A stretch of 64,000 nucleotides of DNA from contig BDSY01000027.1 in the NCBI GenBank assembly GCA_002897895.1, forward strand, positions 4,644 to 68,643, read 5' to 3'. The stretch comes from a bacterium BMS3Abin06 (lineage in GTDB: Bacteria; Nitrospirota; Thermodesulfovibrionia; UBA6902). Positions within the stretch are counted from its first letter, which is position 1, and the number at the start of each line of letters is the position of its first letter. The notes under the pieces were generated by a model. It was not told the origin of the DNA. It ran no database searches and saw nothing but the letters and a program-made list of their open reading frames with translations. The position numbers and the translations under genes were made by a program. Shown here one piece after another: positions 4,944 to 21,816 of the stretch.

Positions 4944-6016
4944 TGGATAAGTATCTTATAGACAGTCATAAACTGCTCTGGCATCTCGACAGGGTCACAG
5001 AATGGCAGGACAAAAGGGTCATTGCACCTGTTTATATTGAGATCAGCCCGGTCTCATTCTGTAACCACAAATGTATCTTCTGCGGAATCGACTTTGCGAG
5101 AGACAAGGGCTTCAAGCTGGAGAGGGAGGCACTCTGTAAAAGACTTGAAGAAATGGGGAAGGCAGGTGTAAAGAGCGTAATGTTTGCCGGAGAAGGTGAG
5201 CCTTTATTGCATAAAGACCTGCCGGAATTTATCAGGACTGCAAGCAATGCCGGCATCGATGTTTCGGTAACAACAAACGGAACCTTGGGAAATTATGATT
5301 TATGGAAAGAGACACTCCCTCATCTTACCTGGATAAGATTCAGTGTGGATGCCGGAACTGCCGGGGTACATGCCAGGGTCCATAATGTTCCGGAAACTTT
5401 TTTTGAGAGGACAGTTGAGAGCATTGAACAGGCTGTCAAGGTAAAAAAGGTGCAAGGGCTTGATGTCACTGTAGGTGTTCAGTTTTTGATAATCGAGGAA
5501 AACCTGAATGATATTGAAAATGCCCTGAGCCTGTTTTCAGGACTTGGGGTTGATTACATAAGCCTTAAACCGTACTCCCTGCATCCACAGATGATAAAGA
5601 AAAAAGAGACCGTTTACACGGATGAAGTAATAAGACATATAGATGATGTAGTTGATGGGTACAGGAAGAACTCAGGTCTGAACATAATTTTCAGGAAAGA
5701 GGCGCTAAAGAAATATATGACTAAGATAAAAATGTTTAAACACTGCTCTGCTCTTCCATTCTGGGGATACATATCTTCAAAAGGCGATTTCTACACATGC
5801 AGTGTATTCATCGGCGATGAGAGATTTAAAACCGGGAACATTCATGAAAACAATATAGATCAGATTTTTTTCGGACAAAAAAGAAAGCAGTCAATACGAT
5901 ACGGAGAGGACGGACTGGTTATTAAAGAAGAGTGCAGACTGAACTGCAGAATGGCGCGGATAAACGAGTTCCTCGAAATTATTGAAAATAAGCCGGAGCA
6001 TGCAAACTTTATTTAG
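4943..6016 (+). CDS. Radical SAM/SPASM-type protein
   Basis: CNHKCIFC, FAGEGEPLL, WIRFSVDA, C-terminal C..LPF...GDFYTC...CRLNC. Confidence 0.9.
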   Translation: MDKYLIDSHKLLWHLDRVTEWQDKRVIAPVYIEISPVSFCNHKCIFCGIDFARDKGFKLEREALCKRLEEMGKAGVKSVMFAGEGEPLLHKDLPEFIRTASNAGIDVSVTTNGTLGNYDLWKETLPHLTWIRFSVDAGTAGVHARVHNVPETFFERTVESIEQAVKVKKVQGLDVTVGVQFLIIEENLNDIENALSLFSGLGVDYISLKPYSLHPQMIKKKETVYTDEVIRHIDDVVDGYRKNSGLNIIFRKEALKKYMTKIKMFKHCSALPFWGYISSKGDFYTCSVFIGDERFKTGNIHENNIDQIFFGQKRKQSIRYGEDGLVIKEECRLNCRMARINEFLEIIENKPEHANFI

Positions 6017-6024
6017 GAGGCCGT

Positions 6025-6990
6025 ATGGCTACAAAAGTACTCATAATTAAACTCGGTTATTCAGAGACACTGGACCAGGAGATAGGAAGGATTCCGAGCC
6101 TCGGGGATGTCCTTAGAACGACCCCGATCCTCTGGGGATTTAAAGAAAAGTATCCTGACAGTCATATAACATGGCTTGTTTCACGTGAAGCGGAACCACT
6201 GCTTACAGGCAACAAGTTCATTGACAGGCTAATGATATGGGATGAATTTGTTCCTTATCAACTGATGAGAGAAAAGTTTGATGTAATGGTAAACCTTGAA
6301 AAGATTCCGGGAGTATGTGCGCTGTCCGATATGATTGATGCATGGGTTAAATATGGATTCCGTTTTGAAAGTGTTAGCGGAACATACCATGCCTATGAGA
6401 AAGGTCTGAACTTCATTGAGTATATAAAAGATAAGCAGAACAGGAAAAAGAGCAAGGACCACTGGCAGCAGGTATTGATAGAAATGGTCGGTGTTAAGTG
6501 GAGGGGACAGGGTTATATCCTGGGATATGATCCCAGGTCTACAGAGAAATACGACATTGGATTTAACTACAATGTCGGAAAGAAATTTCAGACCAAGGCC
6601 ATGTCGATCGGGAAATGGAAAGCACTTGAAAGCAGTCTCGAAGAGCAGGGGTACAATGTATCATGGCAGGAAGGGTTAAAAGATCTTAATGATTATATTG
6701 AATGGATTAACTCCTGCAGACTTTTGATAACACAGGACAGTCTTGGGGTCCATATAGCCCTTGCCCTTAAAAAGAGGATGATAGGATTGTTCGGCCCCAC
6801 GGATGCACAGGAGATATACTTCCATAATTTCGGCAAGTCAATATATTCAAGGCAGGAGTGTCACCTTATGCATTGCTATAGTCCCACATGTTTGACTGGA
6901 TTGAACTGTATGGAATATCTGAATACGGATGAGATACTGAAAGCAGTCGATGAAATGCTCGGAGCAAAGAAGGTAAGTTTGGCAAATTAA
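6025..6990 (+). CDS. Glycosyltransferase family 9 (heptosyltransferase-like)
   Basis: SLGDVLRTTP, ITWLVS, ITQDSLGVHIALALKK..IGLFGPT. Confidence 0.85.
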   Translation: MATKVLIIKLGYSETLDQEIGRIPSLGDVLRTTPILWGFKEKYPDSHITWLVSREAEPLLTGNKFIDRLMIWDEFVPYQLMREKFDVMVNLEKIPGVCALSDMIDAWVKYGFRFESVSGTYHAYEKGLNFIEYIKDKQNRKKSKDHWQQVLIEMVGVKWRGQGYILGYDPRSTEKYDIGFNYNVGKKFQTKAMSIGKWKALESSLEEQGYNVSWQEGLKDLNDYIEWINSCRLLITQDSLGVHIALALKKRMIGLFGPTDAQEIYFHNFGKSIYSRQECHLMHCYSPTCLTGLNCMEYLNTDEILKAVDEMLGAKKVSLAN

Positions 6991-7148
6991 AAGGAGATTA
7001 CGAAAACATTTTAAACAAAACGTCATCCGATTGACATCTCCATCTCTAAAAAACTTTAAAACTAAGTGGTTAGCTTTGGCATGTATATTGCTTTTATGCC
7101 TTGCATGAGAAAAATATCTGTTCTGAAGTGCAAAGGTGAGTCAGCGTC

Positions 7149-7823
7149 ATGAGTTCAAATGTAAAAAGCGCTGTAAAGAATATTTTTAAATACCGGCATA
7201 TTATTTTCGATTTTGACGGAGTGCTGGCTGATACGAATCCGATACGGATTGAAGGATTCGCTAAACTCTTTAAAGAGTATCCCCCTGAGCAGGTGGATGA
7301 GATAATTGCGTTTGCCAACGCCAACGGCGGGCTTTCACGTTTCAAGAAAATCCGCTATTTCTTTAATGAGATCAGGAAGGAATCTTTGTCCAACAAAGAG
7401 CTCTCTGGCTGGGCTGAAAAATATTCCGATATCGTCAAACAGGATGTAATAAACGCGGAGGCAGTTGAAGGGGCTGTTGAATTCCTGACGGGATTTAACG
7501 AGTGTCACAACTTTGCTCTTATTTCCGGATCAGAAGAGCGGGAGCTTCGCGATGTATGCCGGCAGAGGAAGATCGACCGGTATTTTGTAATGATACTCGG
7601 ATCGCCTTCAACAAAGGAAGAGAACATTCATGAATTATTTAAACGTATGCCATGGCAAAAAGAAGAGAGTGTATTTGTCGGTGATTCGGTCAATGATTAC
7701 ACGGCAGCAAAGGCAGTAGGACTCGGTTTTATCGGCCGGAATTCAGGAATGACAGACTGGTCGGCTTACGGGGATGTGTATAGTTTTGATGATTTTAATG
7801 AATTGATAAGAAGAAAAGAATAA
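7149..7823 (+). CDS. HAD-family hydrolase/phosphatase
   Basis: FDFDGVLADT motif I, FVGDSVND motif IV. Confidence 0.9.
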   Translation: MSSNVKSAVKNIFKYRHIIFDFDGVLADTNPIRIEGFAKLFKEYPPEQVDEIIAFANANGGLSRFKKIRYFFNEIRKESLSNKELSGWAEKYSDIVKQDVINAEAVEGAVEFLTGFNECHNFALISGSEERELRDVCRQRKIDRYFVMILGSPSTKEENIHELFKRMPWQKEESVFVGDSVNDYTAAKAVGLGFIGRNSGMTDWSAYGDVYSFDDFNELIRRKE

Positions 7824-7840
7824 TTAAAAAGGAGCTTGGT

Positions 7841-8356
7841 GTGAGATCTGTAATAATAACTGCCCAGAATTTTCAGGATGAGGAATTAACGTATCCGTAT
7901 TACCGGCTTAAGGAAGAAGGGATTATAGTGGATGTGGCTACGCCGGACAAGATGGAGTGTTTCGGTAAATATGGTGTACCGGCACGGCCTACTGTTGATA
8001 CGAAGGACTTGAAGGCGGAAGATTATGACCTTGTGGTCCTGCCTGGTGGTTTTGAGGCGCCGGACCGTCTGAGGTTGCGCAAAGAGGTTCTTAAGTTTAT
8101 TAAGGACATGTATGAAGGCGGAAAGGTCGTTGCCGCGATCTGTCACGGGCCGTGGCTATGTGTTTCGGCCGGGATTTTAAAGGGCAAAAAGGCGACAGCT
8201 TTTCAGTCCATAGCTGATGATGTCCGAAATGCCGGGGCTGAATATCTTGACCGGGATGTTGTTGTGGATGGAAACCTTGTGACCTCGCCCCATTACAGGA
8301 ACAATGGGGATTTTATGAAGGCCACACTTAATTTGCTCAGAGTAAAAACAGAGTAA
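7841..8356 (+). CDS. DJ-1/PfpI family protein (type 1 glutamine amidotransferase-like)
   Basis: FQDEE, LPGG..APDRLR, AICHGPW. Confidence 0.9.
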   Translation: MRSVIITAQNFQDEELTYPYYRLKEEGIIVDVATPDKMECFGKYGVPARPTVDTKDLKAEDYDLVVLPGGFEAPDRLRLRKEVLKFIKDMYEGGKVVAAICHGPWLCVSAGILKGKKATAFQSIADDVRNAGAEYLDRDVVVDGNLVTSPHYRNNGDFMKATLNLLRVKTE

Positions 8357-8362
8357 GGGAAG

Positions 8363-10927
8363 ATGATATATTCAATTTTAGAACAGAAAAACATGGATGT
8401 TACATCAGAAGATGCGGGACCGTCGTCAGCCGAGGGTACTGATTATAACAATGTTATTGTCAAGAAGCCATGGGGATATGAGTACCTGGCTTTTGAGAAT
8501 GAACACGTAGCCATATGGATCCTTCAGCTTGTCCGTAAAAGAAAGACATCAATGCATTGCCACCCCAGAAAAAAGACTTCATTAATCCTCCTGCAGGGGC
8601 AGGCAGTATTTCATCATCTGGACGGCAATGTTTCTTTAGGGGACATGGATGGAGTTGTTATCAAAAATGGAGTTTTTCACTCGACAGAAGCTTATAATCC
8701 TCTGCCCATTACTCCACAATCCGAAAACGGAATATGGGTCATGGAGATTGAATCACCTCCTTATAAATCCGATCTTGTACGCATGCAGGATGCGTATGGA
8801 CGGGCAGGGACTGCTTATGAAGGATCGAGCCATATGGTGCAGGAACCCGAAAGTTACCTGCAGCTGCGGGTGCCGGATTCTTCAGAAGATCTAAAACAGA
8901 AGTTTTTTGACTGTATCTTTACTGTTCATAAAGGCGTCTTTGATAAAGAACTGCCGGCTGATGATGCTCTGATATCAGTGATTGCGCGCGGCGGGGAGAA
9001 TGGAAGTAAGAATCCGGCTTTTTCGGTAGGCGGGTTATCTGAATTCAGGGAATTCAGGAAGAGCGTGGAAAATGTGGACCTCGATGGATATGTTTTTTTG
9101 ATTATTGAAAAAGAGAAAAAGATCATGAGGACTGCTGACTATGTTTTTAACCGAATTGCCGAGTTAGGTGTGAAAGAAGTATTTGCAGTCTCGGGCGGCG
9201 GGGCCATGCATCTTGTGGATGCCGCAGGAAAAAACGAAGACATTAACTATGTCGCGGTCTACCATGAACAGGCAGCTGCCATGGCCGCGGAAGGATATGC
9301 ACGCATAACCGGTAAACCGGGAGTCACGCTCGTTACTTCAGGCCCTGGTGGTACGAATACCATTACCGGTCTCTGCGGGGCATGGATTGATTCAATACCG
9401 ACGATCTTTATTTCAGGACAGGTGACGACCAATACACTGCTGGAAGGGACCGGCCTCCGGCAGTTCGGCATTCAGGAATCAGACATTGTCAGTCTGGTTA
9501 AACCGGTCACAAAATACGCGGTGACAGTAAAAGATCCGGAGATGATCCGGTACCATATTGAAGAAGCGATCTATCATGCGACCAGTGGACGCCCCGGTCC
9601 TGTATGGCTGGACATCCCGCTTGATATTCAGAGCAGACTTATTAATCCCGATGAACTCAGACAGTTCAATCCCCATAGTAAATCTATCCGGGTAGTTTCG
9701 GATGATCTTAAGGGGAAGGTGTCTAAGTGTATAGATTTAATAAAGAAAGCTGAAAGGCCAGTTGTAATCAGTGGTTATGGGATAAGGCTTTCGCATGGAG
9801 AAGAGGAATTTATCCGGTTAGTTGAAATGATAGGGGCGCCTGTTATTTCTTCATGGACGAGCAGCGATTTAATCCCGTCCGATCATGATCTCTATATCGG
9901 GCGCAGCGGGATCATGGGAGACAGGGCCGGTAACTTTACTGTCCAGAATGCTGACCTGCTGCTGGTCATTGGATCAAGGATGTCGATCCCCCAGGTTGGT
10001 TACAACTTCAAGGTATTTGCACGGGAGGCCAAAAAGATAGTTGTAGACATTGACAGGGCCGAGCTTGAAAAGGAGTCGCTCCGGACTGACCTCCCGATCC
10101 AGAGTGACGCAAAGGAATTCATTGAGGAATTGATAAGACAGTTGGAAGAATCAGGCGCAGAGGCCGGATCTCGGAGCTGGCTTGATCAATGCAGAAAGTG
10201 GAAAGAGAAATATCCGGTTGTCCTGCCTGAATATGAAGGCAATGAAGATGCAGTGAACTCATTTTATTTCGTGGATCTGCTTTCGAAGAAGCTCGATAAG
10301 GATGCGGTCATTGTTACGGACATGGGGACAAGTTTTACCTGTACCATGCAGACATTCAAAATCAAAGCGGAGCAGAGGCTCTTTACTTCAAGCGGCCACG
10401 CATCCATGGGTTTCGGACTGCCAGGGGCAATAGGGGCATGCTTCGCGCACGGGAAGAAGACTATATGCATTAGCGGTGACGGAGGTCTCCAGATGAACAT
10501 CCAGGAATTTCAGACACTGGTCCAGTATAAACTGCCGGTCATCCTGTTTGTCTTGAATAATCAGGGGTATCTCACAATTAAATTAATGCAGCAAAATCAT
10601 TTTGGCAGATATGTTGGATCTGATCCGTCCAGCGGAGTCGGAACCCCGGATATTGTAAAGATTGCTCAGGCTTATGGAATTAAAGCGGATCGCATTGCAG
10701 ACCATAAAGAATTAAATCAGAAGATTGATTCCATCCTTGCGGAAGATGGCCCGTTTGTATGTGAGGTGATGATGCCGCCGGAACAGCAGTTGATTCCGAG
10801 GGTTTCTTCCCTGAAAAAACCTGACGGAACTATTATTTCAAAACCACTGGAAGATTTATACCCATTTCTGGACAGAGAAGAATTTCTGGAAAATATGATT
10901 GTGAAACCGGTGGAACCGCTAAAGTGA
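8363..10927 (+). CDS. Fusion of N-terminal cupin domain and ThDP-dependent acetolactate-synthase-like enzyme
   Basis: KPWGYEY...SMHCHP...FHST cupin. HEQAAAMAAEGY, TSGPGGTN, GRPGPVWLDIP, GDGGLQMN...NNQGY ThDP motif. Confidence 0.85.
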   Translation: MIYSILEQKNMDVTSEDAGPSSAEGTDYNNVIVKKPWGYEYLAFENEHVAIWILQLVRKRKTSMHCHPRKKTSLILLQGQAVFHHLDGNVSLGDMDGVVIKNGVFHSTEAYNPLPITPQSENGIWVMEIESPPYKSDLVRMQDAYGRAGTAYEGSSHMVQEPESYLQLRVPDSSEDLKQKFFDCIFTVHKGVFDKELPADDALISVIARGGENGSKNPAFSVGGLSEFREFRKSVENVDLDGYVFLIIEKEKKIMRTADYVFNRIAELGVKEVFAVSGGGAMHLVDAAGKNEDINYVAVYHEQAAAMAAEGYARITGKPGVTLVTSGPGGTNTITGLCGAWIDSIPTIFISGQVTTNTLLEGTGLRQFGIQESDIVSLVKPVTKYAVTVKDPEMIRYHIEEAIYHATSGRPGPVWLDIPLDIQSRLINPDELRQFNPHSKSIRVVSDDLKGKVSKCIDLIKKAERPVVISGYGIRLSHGEEEFIRLVEMIGAPVISSWTSSDLIPSDHDLYIGRSGIMGDRAGNFTVQNADLLLVIGSRMSIPQVGYNFKVFAREAKKIVVDIDRAELEKESLRTDLPIQSDAKEFIEELIRQLEESGAEAGSRSWLDQCRKWKEKYPVVLPEYEGNEDAVNSFYFVDLLSKKLDKDAVIVTDMGTSFTCTMQTFKIKAEQRLFTSSGHASMGFGLPGAIGACFAHGKKTICISGDGGLQMNIQEFQTLVQYKLPVILFVLNNQGYLTIKLMQQNHFGRYVGSDPSSGVGTPDIVKIAQAYGIKADRIADHKELNQKIDSILAEDGPFVCEVMMPPEQQLIPRVSSLKKPDGTIISKPLEDLYPFLDREEFLENMIVKPVEPLK

Positions 10928-12489
10928 CCATGACAACTAATGTAGAAAAATCTGTTTATGATGCCGTGATAGTAATGAATACTGAGCATGATCAAACAGC
11001 GATTGCAAAAGTCGACATTGAAGCAGGGGAAGCGATTACAGATAATGGTATTGTCATTGAAATCAGGAATTCTGTAAAAAAGGGGGAGAGGTTTGCGATC
11101 AGGGAGATCCCCCAGGGTGAATATGTCCGTCAGAATGGATATGCGTTTGGCCGGTCAAAGGGAATAGAAAAAGGTGAGATTATCTCTTCTCTCAATATTA
11201 TAAATATGATTCCTGATACTGACCTGGAAGAATACAGTGAACCGGCAGATACAGAATATAATGAAGAATTGTGCAGAAAGACATTTTCAGGTTATCCGCG
11301 AAAAGACGGTACGGCGGGGACAAGAAATTATTATTTAGTAATTCCTACATCAATGTGTGCCAGTGAAGTTGCTCTGCAGGTTGCATCATCTTTTGCAGAT
11401 AACGAGAATCTGCTGGAAAAATATTCGTCACTGGACGGCATTATTGCAATACCTCATACAGAGGGGTGCGGATGCGATTCGGAGATTTCGATCAGCAGGC
11501 TCATGAGGGTGCTGGCAGGGTATGCGCGCCACCCCAATGTCGGCGGATGTCTTATTATCGACCTTGGATGTGAACAGACTAATTACAGGGTGATGCATTC
11601 GTATATGGAGCAGGAGATCCCAAAAAATCTGAAGCCGATCGACTGGATTACCATTGAAGAGAACGGGGGTGTGGAGGCGTCGATAAAAAAAGCGCGGGAA
11701 ATAATCATCGGACAATTAAGAGAGCTTAATGAGAACAGAAGACAGGACTGTCCGATTGAAAAACTTGTCGTTGGCACGGAATGCGGGGCTTCGGATTCCT
11801 TCTCGGGTCTTACGGCCAACCCCCTGATAGGGAATGTAGCAGACAGAATCGTTTTGGGGAAAGGGATGGTCATCCTCTCCGAGATACCTGAACTGGTCGG
11901 GACTGAGCAGATGCTGCATTCACGGTTCAGCAATCTGAACGTGTCTAAGAAATTCCGGAACTTGATTAAATGGTATGAAGATCTTGCAGGTAAACTGGGT
12001 ATGACATTAGAATCCAATCTTGTTCCCAAAAATGTTGAAGGCGGATTATTTAATACGTATATAAAAAGTCTGGGCGCTGTGTTAAAAGGCGGGACAACAG
12101 TAATTGAAGATGTTGTTGATTATGGAGAACCTCTTGTGAAAAGCGGACTGAATATCATGCAGGGTCCGGGAGGTGACCTTGAATCCGTGACAGGCATGGT
12201 AGCGTCCGGGGCAAACATGGTCCTGTTTTCAACAGGGCAGGGCACCCCGACAGGAAATGCGATATGTCCGGTAATCAAGGTTGCATCCAACAGCGATGTT
12301 TTTTTGAAACTGAGTAATGATCTGGATTTTAACGGTGGTCGGCTGTTTGATGAGTATGAGACTATTGAATCATTAGGAGATGAACTGCTGAATATGGTCA
12401 TTGAAGTTGCGTCCGGAAAGCAGACGGCAGCCGAAAAATTGAAACAGCGGCAGTTTCAGATATGGACAGCGGGGAAGTTGCCATTGTGA
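10924..12489 (+). CDS. UxaA/GarD-family sugar-acid dehydratase with SAF domain
   Basis: GTRNY, HTEGCG, HPNVGG, GTECGASD, NPLIG, TGQGTPTG. Confidence 0.9.
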   Translation: MTMTTNVEKSVYDAVIVMNTEHDQTAIAKVDIEAGEAITDNGIVIEIRNSVKKGERFAIREIPQGEYVRQNGYAFGRSKGIEKGEIISSLNIINMIPDTDLEEYSEPADTEYNEELCRKTFSGYPRKDGTAGTRNYYLVIPTSMCASEVALQVASSFADNENLLEKYSSLDGIIAIPHTEGCGCDSEISISRLMRVLAGYARHPNVGGCLIIDLGCEQTNYRVMHSYMEQEIPKNLKPIDWITIEENGGVEASIKKAREIIIGQLRELNENRRQDCPIEKLVVGTECGASDSFSGLTANPLIGNVADRIVLGKGMVILSEIPELVGTEQMLHSRFSNLNVSKKFRNLIKWYEDLAGKLGMTLESNLVPKNVEGGLFNTYIKSLGAVLKGGTTVIEDVVDYGEPLVKSGLNIMQGPGGDLESVTGMVASGANMVLFSTGQGTPTGNAICPVIKVASNSDVFLKLSNDLDFNGGRLFDEYETIESLGDELLNMVIEVASGKQTAAEKLKQRQFQIWTAGKLPL

Positions 12490-12493
12490 AAAC

Positions 12494-12560
12494 AATTAAG
12501 AATTATGAATTACGAATGAAGGAAAAATAATTACGAATCAAAGATTCGTAATTCGTAATT
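12494..12560. repeat. AATTACG-type heptamer array with 11-bp hairpin
   Basis: aattaag-aattatg-aattacg-aat; aattacgaatc-aaa-gattcgtaatt-cgtaatt. Confidence 0.75.
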
Positions 12561-12579
12561 GATTTTAAAGGAGGTTGTT

Positions 12580-14022
12580 GTGTTAAGGAAACCGAACAAT
12601 CCGAATAATATTAATTTGACAAAGGAATCTCTTGTTACACCGAATCAGGATGAGATAATCAAGTATCACAGCCGCAAGGGGGCTTTTTATACCGCGTTTC
12701 CGTCCCCAGGTTTGTGGGAAGATAGTTTTCAGTATCCGCAGTACCGCGACTCTCTGAAAGATGTATATGGTACGGAGCCGGACCTGCCGACACAGTTTTA
12801 TGTCCATTTTCCGTTTTGTAAAACACAGTGCTGGTACTGCCAGTGCTTCCAGGTCGTCTCAAGAAACCAGGAGAAGATGGACCACTTTATGGAATATATG
12901 TTCAAGGAGATAGACCTGCATCTGGAGTTCTTTGAGCAGAATGGGATTAAACCGAATTTTAACGAGATCCATCTCGGGGGCGGGACACCTTCGTATATAT
13001 CCCCCCAAATGTTCGATAAGATGATCGCCAAATTGCGCACGTTTATCGATATTGATAATATTGAAGAATTTGCAATCGAGATAGACCCCCGTACAACTGA
13101 CAAGGAAAAACTTCAGGCTTATCGCGATGCAGGGATCAACCGCGTCTCTTTCGGGATACAGGACTTTGATCTGAAAGTACAGAAGGCGATCAACCGTGTC
13201 CAGCCGGTCGAAATGATCGAGGAGCTACTTGAGATGCGCCACCTGTTTAAGGGAGTCAATTTTGATCTGATTTATGGAATGCCGTTACAGACACGGGAGT
13301 CATTGCGGAAGACGTTAGAGACGGTCATGCGTCTGTCCCCGGACCGGATTGCCTTCAGTATCCTCGGGTACCGGCCGGATGTATTCCGGCATAACGCTAA
13401 TATCAATGCCGACGATATCCCGGGGTTTATCGAGAAGGCGTATATGTGGGAAGACTCGTTCCCGTTTTTCCTGGAGCATGGGTATGAGCGTGTCGGGATG
13501 GACCACTTTGCCAGGCCTGACGATGAATTGACCATTGCAAAGAACAATGAGGTACTGTTCCGAAATCAGATGGGCTACTCGCCCGGCCGGTTTGCGGACA
13601 ACCTGGGAATCGGCCCGTCCGGCATGAGCCGTCTTAAGAATTATTATACCTGCAACAGCTATAGTCTGGATGACTACAAAAAGATGATTGATGAAAAGAC
13701 ATTCCCGGTTATCAGAGGGATTACATTAAACAGGGACCTCGAAATCCGGCGGGATGTGATGAACAAGATCATGGTCTATTATCATGTTAATTTCACTTAT
13801 TTTAATCATCTCTACAATATTGAGTTTAAGGACTATTTCAAAAAAGAACTCGAAGCTATGCGGGAATTCGTGGAGATCGGGGCACTGGAGATCAATGAAG
13901 ACAGCTTTTCGATGACACCTTACGGCAATTTTTTCCTGCGGAACATCTGCATCATCTTCGATAACCTCGGTAAGGAATATAAACATAATATGGAAACAGG
14001 GGTAAAGATCGCTGCCTGTTAG
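12580..14022 (+). CDS. HemN-like (class C-type) radical SAM enzyme; probable GTG start 12580 after AAGGAGG
   Basis: YVHFPFCKTQCWYC, GGGTPS, EIDPR, NRVSFGIQD, DLIYGMP, GMDHFA; diverged FYTAFP and RNQMGY motifs. Confidence 0.85.
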   Translation: MLRKPNNPNNINLTKESLVTPNQDEIIKYHSRKGAFYTAFPSPGLWEDSFQYPQYRDSLKDVYGTEPDLPTQFYVHFPFCKTQCWYCQCFQVVSRNQEKMDHFMEYMFKEIDLHLEFFEQNGIKPNFNEIHLGGGTPSYISPQMFDKMIAKLRTFIDIDNIEEFAIEIDPRTTDKEKLQAYRDAGINRVSFGIQDFDLKVQKAINRVQPVEMIEELLEMRHLFKGVNFDLIYGMPLQTRESLRKTLETVMRLSPDRIAFSILGYRPDVFRHNANINADDIPGFIEKAYMWEDSFPFFLEHGYERVGMDHFARPDDELTIAKNNEVLFRNQMGYSPGRFADNLGIGPSGMSRLKNYYTCNSYSLDDYKKMIDEKTFPVIRGITLNRDLEIRRDVMNKIMVYYHVNFTYFNHLYNIEFKDYFKKELEAMREFVEIGALEINEDSFSMTPYGNFFLRNICIIFDNLGKEYKHNMETGVKIAAC

Positions 14023-14031
14023 GAGACGCGT

Positions 14032-14814
14032 ATGGGAAAAGTCCAGTTTGGCCTGGAAGATAAAGGCGTTCTCATTACAGGCGCCTCAAAAGGATTAGGG
14101 GCTGTATGCGCGGGTGCGCTGAGTGAAGAAGGGGCGCGTCTGGTCCTGATGGCCCGCTCAGGAGACAGGCTTGAAGAGGTGCGGAAGAATTGCAGGGACA
14201 GAGACAGACATTTGAGTATTGCCCTGGACCTGTGTGATATGCAGGCGCTTGAAAGTGCGGTGAAAAAAGCAGAGGAGTTTCTGGGTGATATTGATGTTGT
14301 CCTGCATGTTGCCGGCGGCGGCCTGGGTATGCGTGATCCATTGTTAAGTGCGGATGAGTTCTTTAAATTGTTTTCGCTTAATGTTGCCGCGTCTGTACAG
14401 ATCAATAAAATGGTTGCCCCTAAGATGATGGAAAGAAAACAGGGAAACCTCGTTCATGTCTGTTCCATTTCATCAAGTGAAGCAACCGGTTCTGTTGGTT
14501 ACAACACTGTCAAGGCGGCTCTGGCCGCATATGTGCGCTCTCTGGGACGGGAGATTGCGGGATCAGGTGTTGTGGCAACAGGTATCCTGCCCGGTGGTTT
14601 TTATGCGCCGGAAAATGCGTTTGCCCGATTGAAAGAAAGAAATCCGGAAGGGTTTAAAGACTTTGTTGAAAGACGTCTCCCACGCAAAGTTATCGGAAGA
14701 GCAGAAGAGCTTGTCCCGATGATACTTCTATTATCTTCTGAAGCAGCATCCATGATGGGCGGGTGTCTGGTCCCTATTGATGCAGGTGAAGGATTGAATT
14801 TTATAACGTCATGA
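14032..14814 (+). CDS. SDR-family oxidoreductase
   Basis: TGASKGLG, YNTVK (YxxxK). Confidence 0.9.
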   Translation: MGKVQFGLEDKGVLITGASKGLGAVCAGALSEEGARLVLMARSGDRLEEVRKNCRDRDRHLSIALDLCDMQALESAVKKAEEFLGDIDVVLHVAGGGLGMRDPLLSADEFFKLFSLNVAASVQINKMVAPKMMERKQGNLVHVCSISSSEATGSVGYNTVKAALAAYVRSLGREIAGSGVVATGILPGGFYAPENAFARLKERNPEGFKDFVERRLPRKVIGRAEELVPMILLLSSEAASMMGGCLVPIDAGEGLNFITS

Positions 14815-16694
14815 TAGAAACTGAAACAATGATCCCGGTGGTCAGTCACGAGAACGCTGAATTTGATAACAGCAAACTGGAAGCGTATGTACGGGAGCTG
14901 CGCCGGAAGTTTCATCTGAACAACCGGCTTCTTCTGGTGCAGACCCTTCAGTTTCAATTAGACGCGTTTAATATCGAGGTAGCACGTAATCGGGGATACT
15001 ATGCATATCCTCCGGCAGGGCTGCAGTGTTTAGTCAAGGCTTTGAAAGACCAGGGGCTTGAGATCGAGATACTGGACCTGAATTATGAACTGCTGAAAAG
15101 GGTTATCGAGGATGAAACATTTGATCATACGGATTGGCTCACTATTCTGGATGAAACACTTGAGCGGTTTGGGCCGACCATGGTGGGTGTAACCTGTATA
15201 GGAGTGGCCGCGCAATTATCAAAACCTTCACATCCTCTGACTGGTGTCCTGAGGCATCTTGCGGAAAAAAATAAATATGTACTTATGGCAGGTGGGCCGA
15301 TCGCGACTGATGAGAAGTATGGGTATCTTTTTGAAGAACTCTGTCATTTTGTTGTTGAGAGTGAAGGAGAAAATAAAATCAATGTTCTTATAGATCATCT
15401 TCTGGATAAAGAAGAGAAGCATAAGCCAACACCCGGTATCTGTTTTAAATATGAAGGTGAATTTGAACAGTCCCGGGGGGCGGAGGATAAAGTGAGAGTC
15501 GAAGGGAATTTGATTGATTATTACAAATACCCGATTGCTGATTATTGCAGGGCTGGTTCCCTGAATCCTTTTTCGAGAATGGCAGGGCAGGATGTGCCGT
15601 TTGCCTCGATCCAGTTGAACAGGGGGTGCCGCTCCAACTGCCGGTTTTGCGGAGTCACAAAGTTTATGGGACCCGGTGTGCGTCAGGCGCCGGTGCAAGC
15701 TGTTTATAATGAAATAGTTTATCTTGTAGAAGAGAAGGGCATCAGGCATTTTGAACTCCTTGATGATGATTTTTTCGGTCCGCCGGGACTTCGAGCAGGA
15801 GTTAATGAATTGTTGGGCAACATGTGTAAATTAAAGGAAACGTATGGCATAAGCTGGTCAGCCGGAAACGGTTTGATCGCAGGTTCTATTGATGACAATC
15901 TCATGCAGTTAATTCATGACTCGGGCTGCATAGGTTTTCGCATAGGGATCGAGTCGGGAAATACGGAGATCCTGGAAAAAATGCGCAAACCCGCATCTGT
16001 CAAATCTATAAAAACGTTTGCATCAAAGACAAAGGATTATCCGGACATGTTTGTGAGTGCGAATTATATTATCGGCTTATACGGTGAAGAGACCTTCGGA
16101 CAGATGATGGATACTTATCGCATGTCATGTGAACTGGACCTTGATTGGTCATCGTATTCGACATTTCAGTTTTCGAGCAAATCAACGAGCAGGATCGAGG
16201 GATTGAGAGATGATGATAAGGGCGCCACTGAATGTATTCCGAGCAAAGACAGTGTATCCCGTGAGATCACAAGGAAAGAAGGTCTCCTCTCTGGCGCTGA
16301 GATATTTAATATCCCGGAGGAGACGGTTCCTTCAAGGGAGCAGGTGATAGAGATATGGTACACCTTTAATTTCCTTTCGAATTATATCTATAACAAAAAC
16401 CTCAGACCCGGAGGGAACCACCGAAAACTCGTTTCATGGATAAAGGCTCTCCAGTTGACCTATCCGAATAACGCATATATGCCGCTTTTTACAGGATTGG
16501 GATATGTCCTCTGTAATGATCCGGAAAAGGCTAAAGAAGAGCTTGAGAAAACAAAAACAAATATAAGGCATTCAGAGGAAGCCGCGTCACGGTTCGCAGA
16601 GTTTCACCTGACAGGCCTGGTCGATGACTTTCCGTCTGAAAAGGAAGAAGTTTATCAGCGTCTGGAAGAAATTGGAAAGAGATTTCCTCATTGA
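14811..16694 (+). CDS. Cobalamin-binding radical SAM protein
   Basis: YPPAGLQCL, AGGPIAT, RGCRSNCRFC, LLDDDF, GIESGN. Confidence 0.85.
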   Translation: MIETETMIPVVSHENAEFDNSKLEAYVRELRRKFHLNNRLLLVQTLQFQLDAFNIEVARNRGYYAYPPAGLQCLVKALKDQGLEIEILDLNYELLKRVIEDETFDHTDWLTILDETLERFGPTMVGVTCIGVAAQLSKPSHPLTGVLRHLAEKNKYVLMAGGPIATDEKYGYLFEELCHFVVESEGENKINVLIDHLLDKEEKHKPTPGICFKYEGEFEQSRGAEDKVRVEGNLIDYYKYPIADYCRAGSLNPFSRMAGQDVPFASIQLNRGCRSNCRFCGVTKFMGPGVRQAPVQAVYNEIVYLVEEKGIRHFELLDDDFFGPPGLRAGVNELLGNMCKLKETYGISWSAGNGLIAGSIDDNLMQLIHDSGCIGFRIGIESGNTEILEKMRKPASVKSIKTFASKTKDYPDMFVSANYIIGLYGEETFGQMMDTYRMSCELDLDWSSYSTFQFSSKSTSRIEGLRDDDKGATECIPSKDSVSREITRKEGLLSGAEIFNIPEETVPSREQVIEIWYTFNFLSNYIYNKNLRPGGNHRKLVSWIKALQLTYPNNAYMPLFTGLGYVLCNDPEKAKEELEKTKTNIRHSEEAASRFAEFHLTGLVDDFPSEKEEVYQRLEEIGKRFPH

Positions 16695-16700
16695 GATAAT

Positions 16701-18770
16701 GTGATGAACGATAACAAAACAAAAAAAGGGATCTATATAGCTCAATTCGGGACAGGATCAACTATTAACCTTCTGCCTCTGGCTGCGGGGCTTCTCGTCT
16801 CACGTTTGAAAGAGGAGAAGGAGTTTTTAAAAAAATATCATCTTGGGGAGATTATTTTTCAAAGGCCGGATAACCCTGAAGAGTTCGTTGCGTCCCTCAG
16901 GGAAGTATTCGTAATGGGTTTATCATTTTCGCTCTGGAATATGAACATTAATTTTACCATTGCCGGAGAGGTAAGGAAAATGTTCCCTGATGCCTTAATT
17001 GTCGGGGGTGGTCCCTCGATTGCCAAGGACCCGGAACTGGTAGATGCCTTTTTTAAAGAACATCCTTATATTGATGTAATTGCGGCCGGGGAGGGTGAGG
17101 AAGCGTTTGTCTCTTTATGCAAACATCATGATGAGGGCAGGAGTTTTGACGATATACCGGGGATCATTTATCGTAACCGGAAAACAGGTGAAGTCCATTA
17201 CGGCCGGCCGGATGAGATACTGCAGATGGAGAAGCTGCCGTCTCCTTTTCTGGACGGGACGTTTGATGACCTGTATGAAAAGTACCATGATGTGTTCTCC
17301 GGAATGATCTGGGAAACCAACCGTGGATGTCCGTTTACATGCTCGTACTGCACGTGGGGTAACTATTCTTCAAGAAAGATACGGATGAATTCCATGGAGC
17401 GTATACGAAGCGAAGTGGAGTGGATCGGGAAAAATAATATCGGCTATATTGCTATGAGTGACGCGAATTTCGGAATTAAAGCACGCGATGTCGAGATAGC
17501 AGGCATGCTGGCTGAATGTAAGAAGAAGTATGGTGTGCCGAATTTCATCTCGGTCAGTTGGGTAAAGAATATAGCGGACAGGGTCCTTCAGATATCGGAT
17601 ATTTTAAAGACTGCCGGGATAGGGTTCCGGGTTACCATGGCGCTGCAGAGCCATAATGAAGATGTTGTTGAGGCGGTGAATCGAAAGAATGTAAAGAAGA
17701 GTACGTTCACCAGGATCAAGGACGTTTACCATTCGCAGAGGCTTTATTCCTATACTGAACTGATACTGGGTCTGCCGCTTGAGACGTATGAATCATTTGT
17801 TTCAGGAGTTGAGAAGAGTTTAAGTGAGAGTGTGTTTGATCAGGTCTATATTTACCCCTGTTTTCTTTTTCCGAACACGCAGCTTTCTTCCCCCCGGAGT
17901 ATTGAGCGGTACGGGATAAAGAGCAAAGAGACAGCCGGCGGATATACCAAAAGCAAGGGTTCTTCAAAGATCGGGGAGAAGATGGATATTGTTGTCGGGA
18001 CAGATGCCATGCCAATGGAAAAATGGGTTGATTCGTTTGTAGAAGGATATTTTATGACAGGGCTGCATGATGACCGCCTGGCTTTTTTTGTGTTCCAGTA
18101 TCTGAAGAAAACATTCGGGATAAAGGTGAAGAATATTATTGTGTTTATGCGCGGGAGAAGCTCGCCGGACAGAACACCGCTTATCAGCAGGGAGTTTAGA
18201 AGGATCGAAAGGACCGCAGAAAATGTCCAGTCTCACGGGGAGTCGCACCTAATGGAGCTTCCTGACTATGGCGGGATTATCTATGACTCGCCGGATGCAG
18301 TTTTTCTGGACCTGCTGTATAAACGCGATGCGTTCTATATAGAGATGCAATCGCTGGTTGAGATGTATCTTAATGAAGCGCAGGTGGGATTTGATCAGAC
18401 AAAGCTGGATGACCTGTTCATTTTTCAAAAGGCGGTCATGGCGCATCCGGACGGCCCTGGCGCTGACGCGGTCGATTTACAGTATGACTGGATAAAGTAT
18501 TTCCGGTTTGCCTTTAATTATGCTGAGGAACCTCTTCAGGAGAAGACAGACCGATTACAGATTATTGATACTGCTCCTTCTGATGGAGACGGAGAACAAT
18601 TCTTAAAGAACCATTTTAATGTGCGGGGTGAACCGGCATTTAATCTTTTGGTGGATGAAGATGGGACGATTGTGTTCCCGTCTGTTTTGATTACGCGTAC
18701 CGGTGGCAGGGAATATTCCGGGGAAGAAAGAAAGTTTAATGATAAAAGAGTAAAGGAACTTGTTGGATAG
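16701..18770 (+). CDS. Cobalamin-binding radical SAM protein with long C-terminal extension
   Basis: LPLAAGLL, VGGGPS, GEGEEAF, ETNRGCPFTCSYC, SDANFG, ELILGLPLET. Confidence 0.85.
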   Translation: MMNDNKTKKGIYIAQFGTGSTINLLPLAAGLLVSRLKEEKEFLKKYHLGEIIFQRPDNPEEFVASLREVFVMGLSFSLWNMNINFTIAGEVRKMFPDALIVGGGPSIAKDPELVDAFFKEHPYIDVIAAGEGEEAFVSLCKHHDEGRSFDDIPGIIYRNRKTGEVHYGRPDEILQMEKLPSPFLDGTFDDLYEKYHDVFSGMIWETNRGCPFTCSYCTWGNYSSRKIRMNSMERIRSEVEWIGKNNIGYIAMSDANFGIKARDVEIAGMLAECKKKYGVPNFISVSWVKNIADRVLQISDILKTAGIGFRVTMALQSHNEDVVEAVNRKNVKKSTFTRIKDVYHSQRLYSYTELILGLPLETYESFVSGVEKSLSESVFDQVYIYPCFLFPNTQLSSPRSIERYGIKSKETAGGYTKSKGSSKIGEKMDIVVGTDAMPMEKWVDSFVEGYFMTGLHDDRLAFFVFQYLKKTFGIKVKNIIVFMRGRSSPDRTPLISREFRRIERTAENVQSHGESHLMELPDYGGIIYDSPDAVFLDLLYKRDAFYIEMQSLVEMYLNEAQVGFDQTKLDDLFIFQKAVMAHPDGPGADAVDLQYDWIKYFRFAFNYAEEPLQEKTDRLQIIDTAPSDGDGEQFLKNHFNVRGEPAFNLLVDEDGTIVFPSVLITRTGGREYSGEERKFNDKRVKELVG

Positions 18771-18790
18771 TTTCCGGAGAGGGACCAGTA

Positions 18791-19489
18791 ATGAGAGAAT
18801 TTAATGCGTTAAGAGTTTATCCTCAGCCTTCAAAACCGCGTTATGTCGGTAAGCATATTCGTACGATCCATAACCGTATCATTGCGTCTTACAGGGGGGA
18901 GGAATACTACGACGGAGACCGTAACAACGGGTATGGCGGGTTCAAGTATGACGGGCGATGGAAAAAGATCGTTGACTCCATGCGCAAAGATTACGGCATA
19001 GACGAAAACACAAAGATATTGCAGCTGGGATGTGAAAAAGGATTTCTATTGCATGATTTTAAGGAGAAGTTTCCTGGTATGAATATCCGTGGTTATGAAA
19101 TGGGCGGGTATCCGGTTGATAATGCGATGCCGTCGGTAAAGGAGTTTATTGATCAGGGCGAATATAAAAAATTGCCATACATGGACAATCAATTTGATTT
19201 TGTGATTGCTATAGGGGTCATTTATACTTTAACCCTGGCAGATGCCATCTCTTGCATTAAGGAGATTCAGAGAGTCGGCAAGGGAAAAAGTTTTATTACA
19301 TTAGGATCTTATCGTGATGATGAGGAACAGAAGCTGTTTAACATGTGGACTGTTCTGGGCTCAACGATCCTGCACGTGGATGACTGGACCGAGGTGCTGA
19401 AACATGCCGGGTATACCGGCGACTATCTTTTCACCACCTCCGGGTATCTGAATTTAGTTGAGGTGAATGAAGGGGTGACTGAATTGTGA
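18791..19489 (+). CDS. Class I SAM-dependent methyltransferase
   Basis: ILQLGCEKGFLL motif I, LPYMDNQFDFV; YDGDRNNGYGGFKYDGRW N-terminal motif. Confidence 0.85.
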   Translation: MREFNALRVYPQPSKPRYVGKHIRTIHNRIIASYRGEEYYDGDRNNGYGGFKYDGRWKKIVDSMRKDYGIDENTKILQLGCEKGFLLHDFKEKFPGMNIRGYEMGGYPVDNAMPSVKEFIDQGEYKKLPYMDNQFDFVIAIGVIYTLTLADAISCIKEIQRVGKGKSFITLGSYRDDEEQKLFNMWTVLGSTILHVDDWTEVLKHAGYTGDYLFTTSGYLNLVEVNEGVTEL

Positions 19490-19566
19490 AAGAATCCGGA
19501 CGTGGAGTGAAAACTGTTAAACCGGCAGATTACGTAAATATTTATTTTTAGTGAAAGGGACACCGA

Positions 19567-21749: not shown

Positions 21750-21816
21750 ACTTGATTGTGTTCAATTGTGATAGCTGTTAAGGCTTATGTTTTTTTAAAA
21801 AAAGGATAGATATTTT

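What the first reader, a model, noticed from the sequence alone, without database searches (positions are those of the whole stretch)
8363..14814. Cupin-ThDP enzyme fusion + UxaA dehydratase + SDR: possible branched or higher-carbon sugar module
Seen: an 854-aa single ORF with a ~250-aa cupin part fused to an ALS-like enzyme. The uxaA-like gene overlaps its stop codon, and an SDR lies nearby. Known: YerE (ThDP) adds a pyruvate-derived C2 branch to a 4-keto NDP-sugar in yersiniose biosynthesis, followed by reduction. UxaA-type enzymes make 2-keto-3-deoxy acids. Inference: a 2-keto acid donor is ligated to a keto-sugar, perhaps the LegB 4-keto product since no CDP-glucose genes are present. The cupin fusion is unusual.
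Basis: partly seen in the sequence, partly recalled or inferred. Interest (0 to 1): 0.7.

Follow-up and report, generated by a model that had tools for sequence, protein, structure and literature searches.

The report
Cupin fused to sugar-branching thiamine enzyme
One real 854-residue gene in a flagellin-sugar island of an uncultured Nitrospirota bacterium joins a metal-type cupin to a thiamine enzyme of the YerE/JanthE kind, which welds carbon side chains onto sugars. It belongs to a widespread gene cassette whose chemistry I could not find described.

Summary
ORF 8363-10927 (854 aa) is a cupin (about residues 30-135), a small beta domain, and a complete three-domain ThDP enzyme (255-854).

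It is not an assembly artefact. More than 120 full-length relatives exist at 62-78% identity, and 403 matching stretches occur in species genomes from many phyla. In other lineages the same cupin is a separate gene next to the ThDP gene.

It is not housekeeping IlvB. It scores below the IlvB cut-off, and the genome has a true IlvB elsewhere. In PDB searches and a tree the ThDP part groups with JanthE, a YerE-like ketone-accepting carboligase, and PpYerE is the next branch outside that clade.

The steadiest partners are a DJ-1/PfpI Cys-His enzyme (63 of 80 loci) and a HAD phosphatase, not UxaA. UxaA-type dehydratase sits beside the enzyme in only 9 of 34 loci of the window's clade. Other lineages place a different 2-keto-acid-forming enzyme there (enolase-type dehydratase, HpcH aldolase, NeuB-like synthase, Ldh_2). 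A relative has UxaA, DJ-1, cupin and HAD with an E1 alpha/beta ThDP pair instead.

Most likely reading: a 2-keto-3-deoxy acid is decarboxylated and joined to a carbonyl sugar. The acceptor and the roles of the cupin, DJ-1 and HAD are unknown. The LegB-product idea is untested.

The parts
7149..7823 (+). HAD_2-type phosphatase or mutase, a recurrent member of the cassette
   Evidence: Pfam HAD_2 E=7.5e-21. HAD genes of three sequence clusters sit beside the module in many loci. No PDB relative at E<=1e-8.
7841..8356 (+). DJ-1/PfpI-family Cys-His enzyme, the most constant partner of the cupin/ThDP pair
   Evidence: Pfam DJ-1_PfpI E=1.6e-49. tblastn finds it in 63 of 80 loci. Cys101-His102 and Glu15 are conserved in at least 95% of 49 sequences. 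The closest solved structures are PH1704 protease I/deglycase and A. thaliana DJ-1D.
8363..10927 (+). 854-aa fusion protein: cupin, beta domain and YerE/JanthE-like ThDP carboligase
8450..8767 (+). Cupin barrel (residues about 30-135) with invariant His65, His67, Lys70 and His106
   Evidence: Alignments A1 and A2, family-level Pfam hits, AlphaFold pLDDT 91, Foldseek matches to PMI, KdgF and cysteine dioxygenase cupins.
8768..9124 (+). Conserved segment MEIESPPxKxDLxRxxDxYGRxGxxYEG (invariant E128, E130, K135, R140, D143, Y145, R147, Y152), followed by a less conserved beta-rich domain up to residue 254
   Evidence: It is also present in the stand-alone proteins of about 250 aa.
9125..10927 (+). 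ThDP enzyme of the JanthE clade. It has Glu302 in HEQ, G705-D706-G707 with N732-N733, and the C-terminal PRVSSLKKPDGTIISKPLEDLYPFL stretch, which aligns with JanthE; the alignments to PpYerE and plant AHAS end at its start (near residue 815)
   Evidence: PDB 8rph at 466 bits against PpYerE 5ahk at 298 and plant AHAS at 280. Tree. TIGR00118 426 bits, below the cut-off of 538.
10924..12489 (+). UxaA/GarD-family dehydratase, the candidate maker of the 2-keto-3-deoxy acid donor. The start is GTG 10924 or ATG 10930
   Evidence: Pfam GD_AH_second and GD_AH_C. TIGR03248 270 bits, far below the cut-off of 731. GarD 6u7l at 217 bits. Adjacent to the ThDP gene in 9 of 34 loci of the window's clade, and beside DJ-1/cupin/HAD/E1 alpha-beta in relative G057.
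12559..14022 (+). HemN-like radical SAM enzyme (class C type), probably a tailoring enzyme
   Evidence: TIGR00538 407.7 bits (cut-off 325). Found in 13 of 34 loci of the window's clade.
14032..14814 (+). Classical SDR, the candidate ketoreductase of the new side chain (YerF-like role inferred)
   Evidence: adh_short E=7e-35. Found in 21 of 34 clade loci at about 61% identity, usually directly before the B12-radical SAM genes.

Best explanation
The gene encodes a bifunctional enzyme. Its C-terminal 600 residues are a ThDP-dependent carboligase of the YerE/JanthE clade. Such enzymes decarboxylate a 2-keto acid on ThDP and add the resulting acyl-anion equivalent to a ketone or aldehyde, which creates a C-C bond and a tertiary or secondary alcohol. 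In this island the donor is most likely a 2-keto-3-deoxy sugar acid made by the translationally coupled UxaA/GarD-family dehydratase. The acceptor is a carbonyl sugar of the flagellin-glycan pathway. The SDR then reduces the new side-chain ketone, as YerF does, and the HemN-like and B12-radical SAM enzymes methylate or otherwise tailor it. The product would be a C-branched or chain-extended higher sugar. GT9 or the 695-aa glycosyltransferase would add it to the legionaminic-acid-based flagellin glycan. The fused 3-His cupin, the DJ-1/PfpI Cys-His enzyme and the HAD protein are obligate helpers whose steps are not known. My guess is that the cupin is a metal-dependent ene-diol type isomerase, like PMI or KdgF/KduI, that makes or positions the carbonyl partner for the ThDP site. 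Shown here: the architecture, the clade membership, the conserved catalytic motifs and the gene linkage. Inferred: every chemical step.
For: The fusion is real and conserved: more than 120 protein clusters of 850-865 aa at 62-78% identity, and 403 stretches in species genomes. Among the ThDP genes of the 83 loci read (80 of them from that scan) there are 54 fused, 16 split but adjacent, and 2 with a cupin gene nearby. The best solved relatives are JanthE (8rph, E 1e-138, 466 bits, aligned to the C-terminal end) and then PpYerE (5ahk). In the tree the fusion family plus JanthE form one clade at 99% SH-aLRT, PpYerE is the next branch out, and E. coli IlvB, IlvI and the genome's own IlvB lie outside. 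The catalytic Glu and the GDG...NN motif are invariant or nearly so. The genome has a true IlvB (855 bits), while the fusion scores 427. Enzymes that form 2-keto acids recur next to this ThDP clade: UxaA, an MR/MLE dehydratase, HpcH/HpaI aldolase and Ldh_2, and a NeuB-family+cupin protein. In a same-class relative, UxaA, DJ-1, cupin and HAD sit with an E1 alpha/beta ThDP pair. So the helper set and the dehydratase stay together even when the ThDP enzyme is swapped. The published precedent is that ErwE and MyGE use functionalised C4-C8 keto acids as donors (PMC9306805). The island carries a complete legionaminic acid gene set, Maf and flagellin.
Against: No substrate has been tested, and the physiological substrates of JanthE itself are unknown (PMC12188165). 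UxaA is missing from most loci with the fusion. The cassette has no nucleotidyltransferase of its own. The genome lacks the HldE-like gene that accompanies the cassette elsewhere, so the activated acceptor is unidentified. Known YerE clusters have no cupin, DJ-1 or HAD. Their constant presence here means the chemistry may differ materially from YerE's. The full-length AlphaFold model did not place the cupin (pLDDT below 50 for residues 1-161), so there is no structural hint of channelling.
Confidence: 0.5

Rival explanations
1. Chain extension rather than branching. The ThDP enzyme adds the decarboxylated keto acid to the aldehyde or ketone of a free or phosphorylated sugar, as DXS or transketolase do, and not to an NDP-4-keto sugar. 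The PMI-like cupin supplies the ketose or aldose form, and the HAD enzyme removes or moves the phosphate before nucleotide activation.
For: The cupin resembles aldose-ketose isomerases (PF01050 in 63 of 69 relatives; Foldseek PMI at TM 0.83-0.86). HAD_2 enzymes are sugar-phosphate phosphatases or mutases. The window's clade is often linked to sugar-phosphate genes of the heptose type (HldE-like 13 of 34, SIS 6 of 34). The cassette has no 4,6-dehydratase of its own.
Against: All characterised relatives (YerE, ErwE, JanthE) are described as ketone acceptors acting in NDP-deoxysugar contexts. In CPR and DPANN loci the module sits directly among NTP-transferase and 4,6-dehydratase-type genes.
Confidence: 0.2
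2. The acceptor is GDP-2-acetamido-2,6-dideoxy-hexos-4-ulose, the LegB product, diverted from legionaminic acid synthesis.
For: LegB is the only 4,6-dehydratase in the window. The cassette is embedded between legI and legG in this window, and beside LegC- and PglD-like genes in the closest relative L001. NeuB genes lie within 10 kb in 3 further loci. Two Burkholderiales genomes place a JanthE-like gene directly beside nonulosonic-acid genes.
Against: Most loci with the fusion have no Leg genes (NeuB in 3 of 34 and 0 of 46). The Leg set here is complete without the cassette. No direct test was possible.
Confidence: 0.15
3. A decarboxylase route to an acyl or alkyl substituent. The ThDP enzyme only decarboxylates the UxaA product to an aldehyde. 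The SDR reduces or oxidises that aldehyde, and it ends as an N- or O-linked substituent of legionaminic acid.
For: Nonulosonic acids on flagellins often carry unusual acyl groups (my own knowledge). An SDR and methyltransferases are nearby.
Against: The clade is that of carboligases, not of keto-acid decarboxylases. No acyl-activating enzyme or acyltransferase lies in the cassette.
Confidence: 0.1
4. A housekeeping or catabolic acetolactate synthase, with the fusion as an annotation or assembly artefact.
For: The top NCBIfam names are acetolactate synthase. Some public gene calls start at Met255 and give a 600-aa product (P0005).
Against: It scores below every equivalog cut-off. A true IlvB lies elsewhere in the genome. 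It falls outside the IlvB/IlvI group in the tree. The fused architecture is conserved in dozens of phyla, with an invariant Met1 and cupin motifs. The identical protein is on record on 6 contigs.
Confidence: 0.01

Closest known systems
JanthE of Janthinobacterium sp. HH01 (PDB 8rph/8rpi/8rpj), a YerE-like ThDP carboligase
   Same: It is the best solved relative: 466 bits over residues 255-845, including the C-terminal PxxSxxxxDGTxxSxPLEDLxP stretch and the (S/T)R(M/L)xIPQ(V/I)GY segment that replaces the RFDDR of AHAS. It falls in the same clade in the tree. It accepts ketones and 2-keto acids up to functionalised C5.
   Different: JanthE is a 619-aa chain in the PDB with no cupin domain aligned, and it has a CDG rather than a GDG motif. 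Identity to the family is at most 47%. Its physiological reaction is unknown. Its nearest relatives in my set (Bacteroidota L052 and L053) have the cupin as a separate upstream gene, plus DJ-1, HpcH aldolase, Ldh_2 and HAD.
YerE/YerF (yersiniose A) and ErwE/ErwF (erwiniose) sugar-branching systems
   Same: A ThDP enzyme adds a keto-acid-derived acyl group to a keto sugar, and a reductase follows. The donor-forming enzyme is encoded next door (ErwI aldolase) (PMC9306805).
   Different: Those clusters use CDP-3,6-dideoxy-4-keto-glucose and have no cupin, DJ-1/PfpI, HAD or radical SAM genes. Here no CDP-glucose genes are present, and the donor maker is a UxaA/GarD-type dehydratase.
Biosynthetic acetolactate synthase IlvB/IlvI
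   Same: Three-domain ThDP fold, catalytic Glu and GDG...NN motif.
   Different: It scores below the equivalog cut-off (426 against 538). It lies outside the IlvB/IlvI group. A separate true IlvB exists in the genome. The window holds no second ALS-like gene.
Small cupin isomerases: type II/archaeal phosphomannose isomerase (7zvy, 7zvm) and KdgF (5fq0)
   Same: Single-domain metal cupin fold, with TM 0.79-0.86 to these targets, and the PWGxE lead-in typical of PF01050.
   Different: Only 13-16% identity. Lys70 stands where the cupin motif usually has the metal-binding Glu, which leaves a 3-His set. An extra conserved E/K/R/D/Y-rich segment and a second beta domain follow the barrel.
E1 alpha/beta-type sugar-branching ThDP enzymes (the AviB1/AviB2 and Pau11/Pau12 kind)
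   Same: In relative G057 an E1 alpha/beta pair occupies the place of the YerE-like enzyme beside the same cupin, DJ-1, HAD and UxaA genes.
   Different: It belongs to a different ThDP superfamily and is not present in this window.

Membership tests
YerE-like ThDP carboligases (decarboxylase superfamily) | Three-domain PYR-TH3-PP architecture with the catalytic Glu and the GDG(X)24-27NN ThDP motif | tested here: met
   Pfam N, M and C domains. E302, G705, G707, N732 and N733 are invariant and D706 is at least 90% conserved in 20 relatives.
YerE-like ThDP carboligases (decarboxylase superfamily) | Closer to characterised YerE-like enzymes than to AHAS, Gcl or pyruvate oxidase | tested here: met
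   JanthE 466 bits and PpYerE 298 bits are the top two PDB hits. The clade with JanthE has 99% SH-aLRT, and IlvB/IlvI lie outside. The tree used a quick search only. PpYerE sits on a long branch.
YerE-like ThDP carboligases (decarboxylase superfamily) | Uses a ketone as acceptor to give a tertiary alcohol | not testable with these tools
   This needs an enzyme assay.
YerE-like ThDP carboligases (decarboxylase superfamily) | Encoded with an NDP-4-keto-deoxysugar pathway and a side-chain reductase | tested here: inconclusive
   LegB, LegC and an SDR are in the island, but there is no CDP-glucose route. The orthology of the SDR to YerF was not tested.
Biosynthetic acetolactate synthase large subunit (TIGR00118) | Score above the curated equivalog cut-off | tested here: not met
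   426.1 bits against a cut-off of 538.35. The genome's own IlvB scores 855.
Mannose-6-phosphate isomerase type II cupin (PF01050) | Score above the Pfam gathering threshold | tested here: not met
   14.8 bits against 23.6 for the window protein. Relatives reach E=3.5e-7 at best. The stand-alone protein of G057 scores 25.0. I read this as related in fold and perhaps in mechanism, but I do not file it as a PMI.
Cupin superfamily | Double-stranded beta-helix fold with His-rich metal motifs | tested here: met
   AlphaFold pLDDT 91.3. 597 PDB matches at E<=0.001, and the 50 listed are all cupins. H65-x-H67 and H106 are invariant. Metal binding itself was not tested.
UxaA/GarD dehydratases (for 10924-12489) | GD_AH second and C-terminal domains, full-length similarity to GarD | tested here: met
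   It is not a GarD equivalog (270 against 731 bits), so the substrate is unknown.
DJ-1/PfpI (for 7841-8356) | Nucleophile-elbow Cys followed by His, and a conserved Glu | tested here: met
   C101, H102 and E15 are conserved in at least 95% of 49 sequences. PH1704 at 135 bits.

The most novel reading that the evidence does not exclude
DJ-1/PfpI, this 3-His cupin, HAD and an interchangeable ThDP carboligase (YerE-like or E1 alpha/beta), fed by interchangeable 2-keto-3-deoxy-acid makers, form an undescribed, oxygen-independent pathway to a new class of C-branched or chain-extended higher sugars. In this Nitrospirota lineage the sugar is further C-methylated by radical SAM enzymes and displayed on flagellin. 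The cupin and the DJ-1 protein catalyse steps with no precedent in nucleotide-sugar biochemistry. Examples would be metal-dependent keto-isomerisation of the acceptor or of the acyloin product, and Cys-dependent processing of a dicarbonyl intermediate.
Probability: 0.3. Interest if true: 0.8.

Novelty: new variant of a known kind. Interest (0 to 1): 0.62.

Why it matters
YerE-like enzymes are the only well-studied biocatalysts that add acyl groups to ketones to give chiral tertiary alcohols. Only a handful have been characterised, and the physiological reaction of JanthE, the closest one, is unknown.

This gene shows that the JanthE clade is large: hundreds of species, from DPANN archaea and CPR bacteria to Planctomycetota and Nitrospirota. 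It usually works with a dedicated cupin, which is sometimes fused to it, plus a DJ-1/PfpI enzyme and a HAD protein. None of these features in the published schemes I could read.

Working out this module would explain a common, unassigned block of surface-glycan loci in uncultured microbes. It would give the likely native substrates of JanthE-type enzymes. It could also reveal new reactions for the cupin and DJ-1 folds. Here the module sits in a flagellin glycosylation island, so the product should be detectable by mass spectrometry of one abundant protein.

Tried and rejected
- Full-length AlphaFold model with 20 close relatives. The cupin was not modelled (pLDDT below 50 for residues 1-161), so nothing can be said about domain docking. 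A second job on the N-terminal part with 69 diverse sequences worked.
Support against an artefact therefore rests on the conserved architecture and on the identical protein being on record on 6 contigs.
- Search for JanthE's own gene neighbourhood. The strain could not be addressed by name. A scan of 401 genomes of one order found 14 with JanthE-like genes, at 60% identity at best. Their context turned out to be informative, but it is not JanthE's own.
- HAD protein. It has no solved relative at E<=1e-8 and no NCBIfam family at E<=1e-20, so no sub-function could be assigned.
- Link to coenzyme-M-like sulfonate chemistry (Ldh_2, HAD and ThDP; SuyB is UxaA-like; APS kinase and a sulfotransferase lie in the window). 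Rejected as the general explanation, because the PK-like, APS kinase and sulfotransferase genes occur in none of the 83 related loci and the ThDP clade is that of the carboligases.
- Link to methionine-salvage-like chemistry (HAD enolase-phosphatase plus an acireductone dioxygenase cupin giving a 2-keto acid). Considered only as an idea. That chemistry needs O2, the hosts carry many radical SAM genes, and there was no sequence support.
- The cupin of the Burkholderiales NeuB+cupin protein is only generically similar to this cupin (hhalign probability 68%). I do not claim it as the same family.


Full report
WHAT IS THERE

The window is a flagellin glycosylation island.
- It carries a legionaminic-acid gene set: LegB 35-1033 (TIGR04180 511 bits, above the cut-off), a LegC-family gene 972-2144, a NeuD/PglD-type acetyltransferase, NeuB 2823-3824, NeuC 27336-28592, a CBS+nucleotidyltransferase gene and a CMP-transferase gene.
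- A TPR/GT gene, a Maf gene and flagellin (37979-39850) follow.
- Between neuB and neuC lies a cassette of about 20 kb (3996-23854). In order it holds: two radical SAM genes, GT9, HAD, DJ-1/PfpI, the 854-aa ORF, a UxaA/GarD-family gene, a HemN-like radical SAM gene, an SDR, two B12-radical SAM genes, a methyltransferase, another SPASM radical SAM gene, a pyruvate-kinase barrel without its C domain, an APS kinase, a sulfotransferase and a glycosyltransferase.

THE ORF

- ORF 8363-10927 starts at ATG behind a Shine-Dalgarno-like AAGGGAAG and runs 854 codons.
- Residues 255-802 hold the three ThDP-enzyme domains.
- The uxaA-like ORF begins at GTG 10924, overlapping the TGA, or at the in-frame ATG 10930.

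IS THE FUSION REAL?

Yes.
- The word-indexed search returned more than 120 clusters of 835-892 aa at 62-78% identity over 96-100% of the length. They come from NCBI, JGI, ENA and Logan assemblies and are named Omnitrophota, Nitrospirae and Nitrospinaceae.
- The identical protein is on record on 6 contigs.
- A scan of one genome per species found 403 stretches. Hosts include Omnitrophota, Planctomycetota (among them Scalindua), Nitrospina, Nitrosomonadaceae, Myxococcota, Elusimicrobia, Chloroflexota, Bacteroidota, CPR phyla and DPANN archaea.
- Met1 and the cupin motifs are invariant in 20 relatives.
- Among the ThDP genes of the 83 loci I read (80 of them from that scan), 54 are fused. In 16 the same cupin, as a protein of about 250 aa, is encoded directly upstream of the ThDP gene. 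In 2 it lies nearby, and 27 ThDP genes stand alone.
- A full HMMER scan with the cupin part found 827 representatives at 50% clustering. Most are about 250 aa and some are about 850 aa.
- Fused and split forms are mixed on the ThDP tree, which needs at least 3-5 changes. The two parts therefore work together.
- Some public gene calls start at Met255 (P0005, 600 aa). That is an annotation slip.

WHAT KIND OF THDP ENZYME?

- All acetolactate-synthase models score below their cut-offs (TIGR00118 426 against 538).
- The genome has a true IlvB on another contig (855 bits). Its closest named relatives place the host in Nitrospirota/Thermodesulfovibrionia.
- Against the PDB, the best hit by far is 8rph (466 bits, E 1e-138, aligned to residue 845). 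[quoted passage not shown] - The second hit is 5ahk (298 bits). From my own knowledge, not checked here, this is the Pseudomonas protegens YerE. Plant AHAS follows at about 280 bits.
- In a maximum-likelihood tree (quick search, LG+G4), all 98 ThDP sequences from the loci, the window enzyme and JanthE form one clade (99% SH-aLRT). PpYerE is the next branch out. E. coli IlvB, IlvI and the genome's own IlvB lie outside.
- JanthE's nearest neighbours there are two Bacteroidota genes that have the cupin as a separate upstream gene.
The YerE-like reading is supported.

THE N-TERMINAL PART

- On its own the window sequence gives only E=0.03-0.04 to PF01050 and Cupin_2.
- Among relatives, 63 of 69 hit PF01050 and 51 hit Cupin_2.
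- The AlphaFold model on 69 sequences is confident (pLDDT 91.3).
- Foldseek matches small metal cupins: archaeal phosphomannose isomerases (TM 0.83-0.86), KdgF (TM 0.79, rmsd 1.4), cysteine dioxygenase and oxalate decarboxylase.
- Invariant residues are His65, His67, Lys70 and His106, then Glu128, Glu130, Lys135, Arg140, Asp143, Tyr145, Arg147 and Tyr152.
- Lys70 stands near the place of the usual metal-binding Glu, so the site looks like a 3-His site.
- The many invariant charged residues after the barrel suggest a phosphate- or carboxylate-bearing substrate. This is inference.

PARTNERS

I called ORFs in the 83 loci, clustered them and labelled the clusters with Pfam.
- The steadiest neighbour is the DJ-1/PfpI gene: 63 of 80 loci by tblastn, at about 58% identity. 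Its Cys101-His102 and Glu15 are conserved. PH1704 and plant DJ-1D are the closest solved relatives.
- HAD_2 genes of three sequence clusters are the next most typical neighbours.
- The wider context is always glycan synthesis: NAD-dependent epimerase/dehydratases, DegT enzymes, nucleotidyltransferases and GT2.
- The window's own clade (35 rows, 100% support) is the radical SAM-rich version. Counts out of 34 loci: B12-radical SAM 27, SPASM radical SAM 25, SDR 21, HAD 18, HemN-like 13, a bifunctional HldE-like gene 13, UxaA 9, GT9 5.
- UxaA is thus an accessory of this clade only.
- The position beside the ThDP gene is repeatedly taken by some enzyme that makes a 2-keto acid. Examples are UxaA/GarD-type dehydratase, an MR/MLE-type dehydratase in Nitrospinaceae, and HpcH/HpaI aldolase and Ldh_2 dehydrogenase in Bacteroidota and CPR loci.
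- In Burkholderiales genomes with JanthE-like genes but without this cupin or DJ-1, a 502-aa NeuB-family+Cupin_2 protein ends where the ThDP gene starts.
- About 20 loci carry a second, unfused ThDP paralogue directly after the fused one.

A TELLING RELATIVE

- Of 60 relatives (same genus to same class), only one has this cupin. The cassette is therefore an acquired accessory.
- It is absent from all 36 genomes of the same genus or family. Its G+C content (0.45-0.47) is slightly above that of the flank (0.42-0.43).
- In that one relative the gene order is: B12-radical SAM, epimerase, UxaA-like, DJ-1, epimerase/dehydratase, stand-alone cupin, HAD, E1 alpha-like, E1 beta-like.
- The helper set and the UxaA-type dehydratase therefore stay together while the ThDP enzyme is replaced by one of another superfamily. 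That superfamily also contains sugar-branching enzymes. Earlier AI notes of this scan said the same. I checked it here independently.

HOW IT MOST LIKELY WORKS

- The published frame is that YerE adds pyruvate-derived acetyl to CDP-3,6-dideoxy-4-keto-glucose and YerF reduces it. ErwE and mycobacterial homologues use functionalised C4-C8 keto acids made by a neighbouring aldolase (PMC9306805).
- By analogy, the UxaA-like enzyme here would make a 2-keto-3-deoxy sugar acid.
- The ThDP domain would decarboxylate it and join it to a carbonyl sugar.
- The SDR would reduce the new ketone, and the HemN-like and B12-radical SAM enzymes would tailor the product.
- GT9 or the 695-aa glycosyltransferase would transfer it.
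- The architecture, clade, motifs and linkage are shown. All chemistry is inferred.
- The acceptor is open. LegB is the only 4,6-dehydratase in the window, and the genome lacks the HldE-like gene seen in sister loci. However, Leg genes accompany the fusion only rarely.
- The roles of the cupin, DJ-1 and HAD are unknown. I favour an ene-diol type isomerase for the cupin, on fold resemblance only.

LITERATURE

No paper in the searchable library links YerE-like enzymes with a cupin or describes this cassette in flagellin glycosylation. The physiological substrates of JanthE are stated to be unknown.

VERDICT

- It is a new variant of a known kind: a YerE-like sugar-branching enzyme with a fused cupin and an undescribed helper set.
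- It is widespread, and this scan has flagged it before in other genomes. It is not unique to this window.
- Its flagellin context, together with the UxaA/E1 swap in a relative, is useful new detail.

Noticed in passing
L110:7522-9030 (also L104-L109, L108; Burkholderiales-order genomes): A 502-aa protein that joins a NeuB-family domain to a C-terminal Cupin_2 domain ends exactly where a JanthE-like ThDP gene starts (9030). A NeuB-like gene lies directly upstream of the ThDP gene in 7 of 13 such loci and 2.6 kb upstream in an eighth. A CDP-type nucleotidyltransferase, a 4,6-dehydratase and a DegT gene precede it in 4 of them. This is another keto-acid maker (PEP + aldehyde) and another cupin tied to this ThDP clade.
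   Followed up: partly
L102:9004-17400 and L103 (two genomes): A JanthE-like ThDP gene sits directly beside PglD-like, NeuC, DegT, dehydratase and NeuB genes (53% identity to the window's NeuB). This is a second, independent link between nonulosonic-acid loci and this enzyme clade, here without the cupin or DJ-1.
   Followed up: no
L114 (G057:C79:321-10628, minus strand): A same-class relative carries UxaA-like, DJ-1, epimerase/dehydratase, a stand-alone cupin (263 aa, PF01050 25 bits), HAD and an E1 alpha/E1 beta ThDP pair in one operon-like run, preceded by a B12-radical SAM gene and an aldo/keto reductase gene.
   Followed up: yes
about 20 loci, e.g. L048, L050, L056, L058, L067-L069, L072-L075, L082: A fused cupin-ThDP gene is followed directly by a second, unfused ThDP paralogue from a separate well-supported clade. 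This suggests two successive ligations or a heteromeric enzyme.
   Followed up: no
window 12559-14022: The HemN-like radical SAM gene inside the finding's span scores above the curated HemN cut-off (407.7 against 325 bits), yet it sits in a glycan cassette and recurs in 13 of 34 sister loci. It probably has a repurposed class C-type function.
   Followed up: no
window 20676-23854: The pyruvate-kinase barrel without its C domain, the APS kinase and the sulfotransferase have no counterpart in any of the 83 related loci. They are a local addition, probably for glycan sulfation, and not part of the conserved module.
   Followed up: partly
window 3996-23854 against relatives G001-G036: The cupin, and so the cassette, is absent from all 36 genomes of the same genus or family. 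The closest homologues are in another assembly (78%) and in Omnitrophota (about 66-70%). G+C is 0.45-0.47 inside against 0.42-0.43 upstream and 0.33-0.39 at 20-30 kb. This looks like horizontal acquisition into the Leg island.
   Followed up: partly
window 9125 (Met255): Public protein collections also hold a 600-aa version of this gene that starts at Met255 (P0005). Automatic annotation sometimes drops the cupin, which would hide the fusion in database surveys.
   Followed up: no
window 26336-26878: A Uma2-family putative endonuclease gene lies between the cassette's last glycosyltransferase and neuC, in the lowest-G+C stretch of the island.
   Followed up: no
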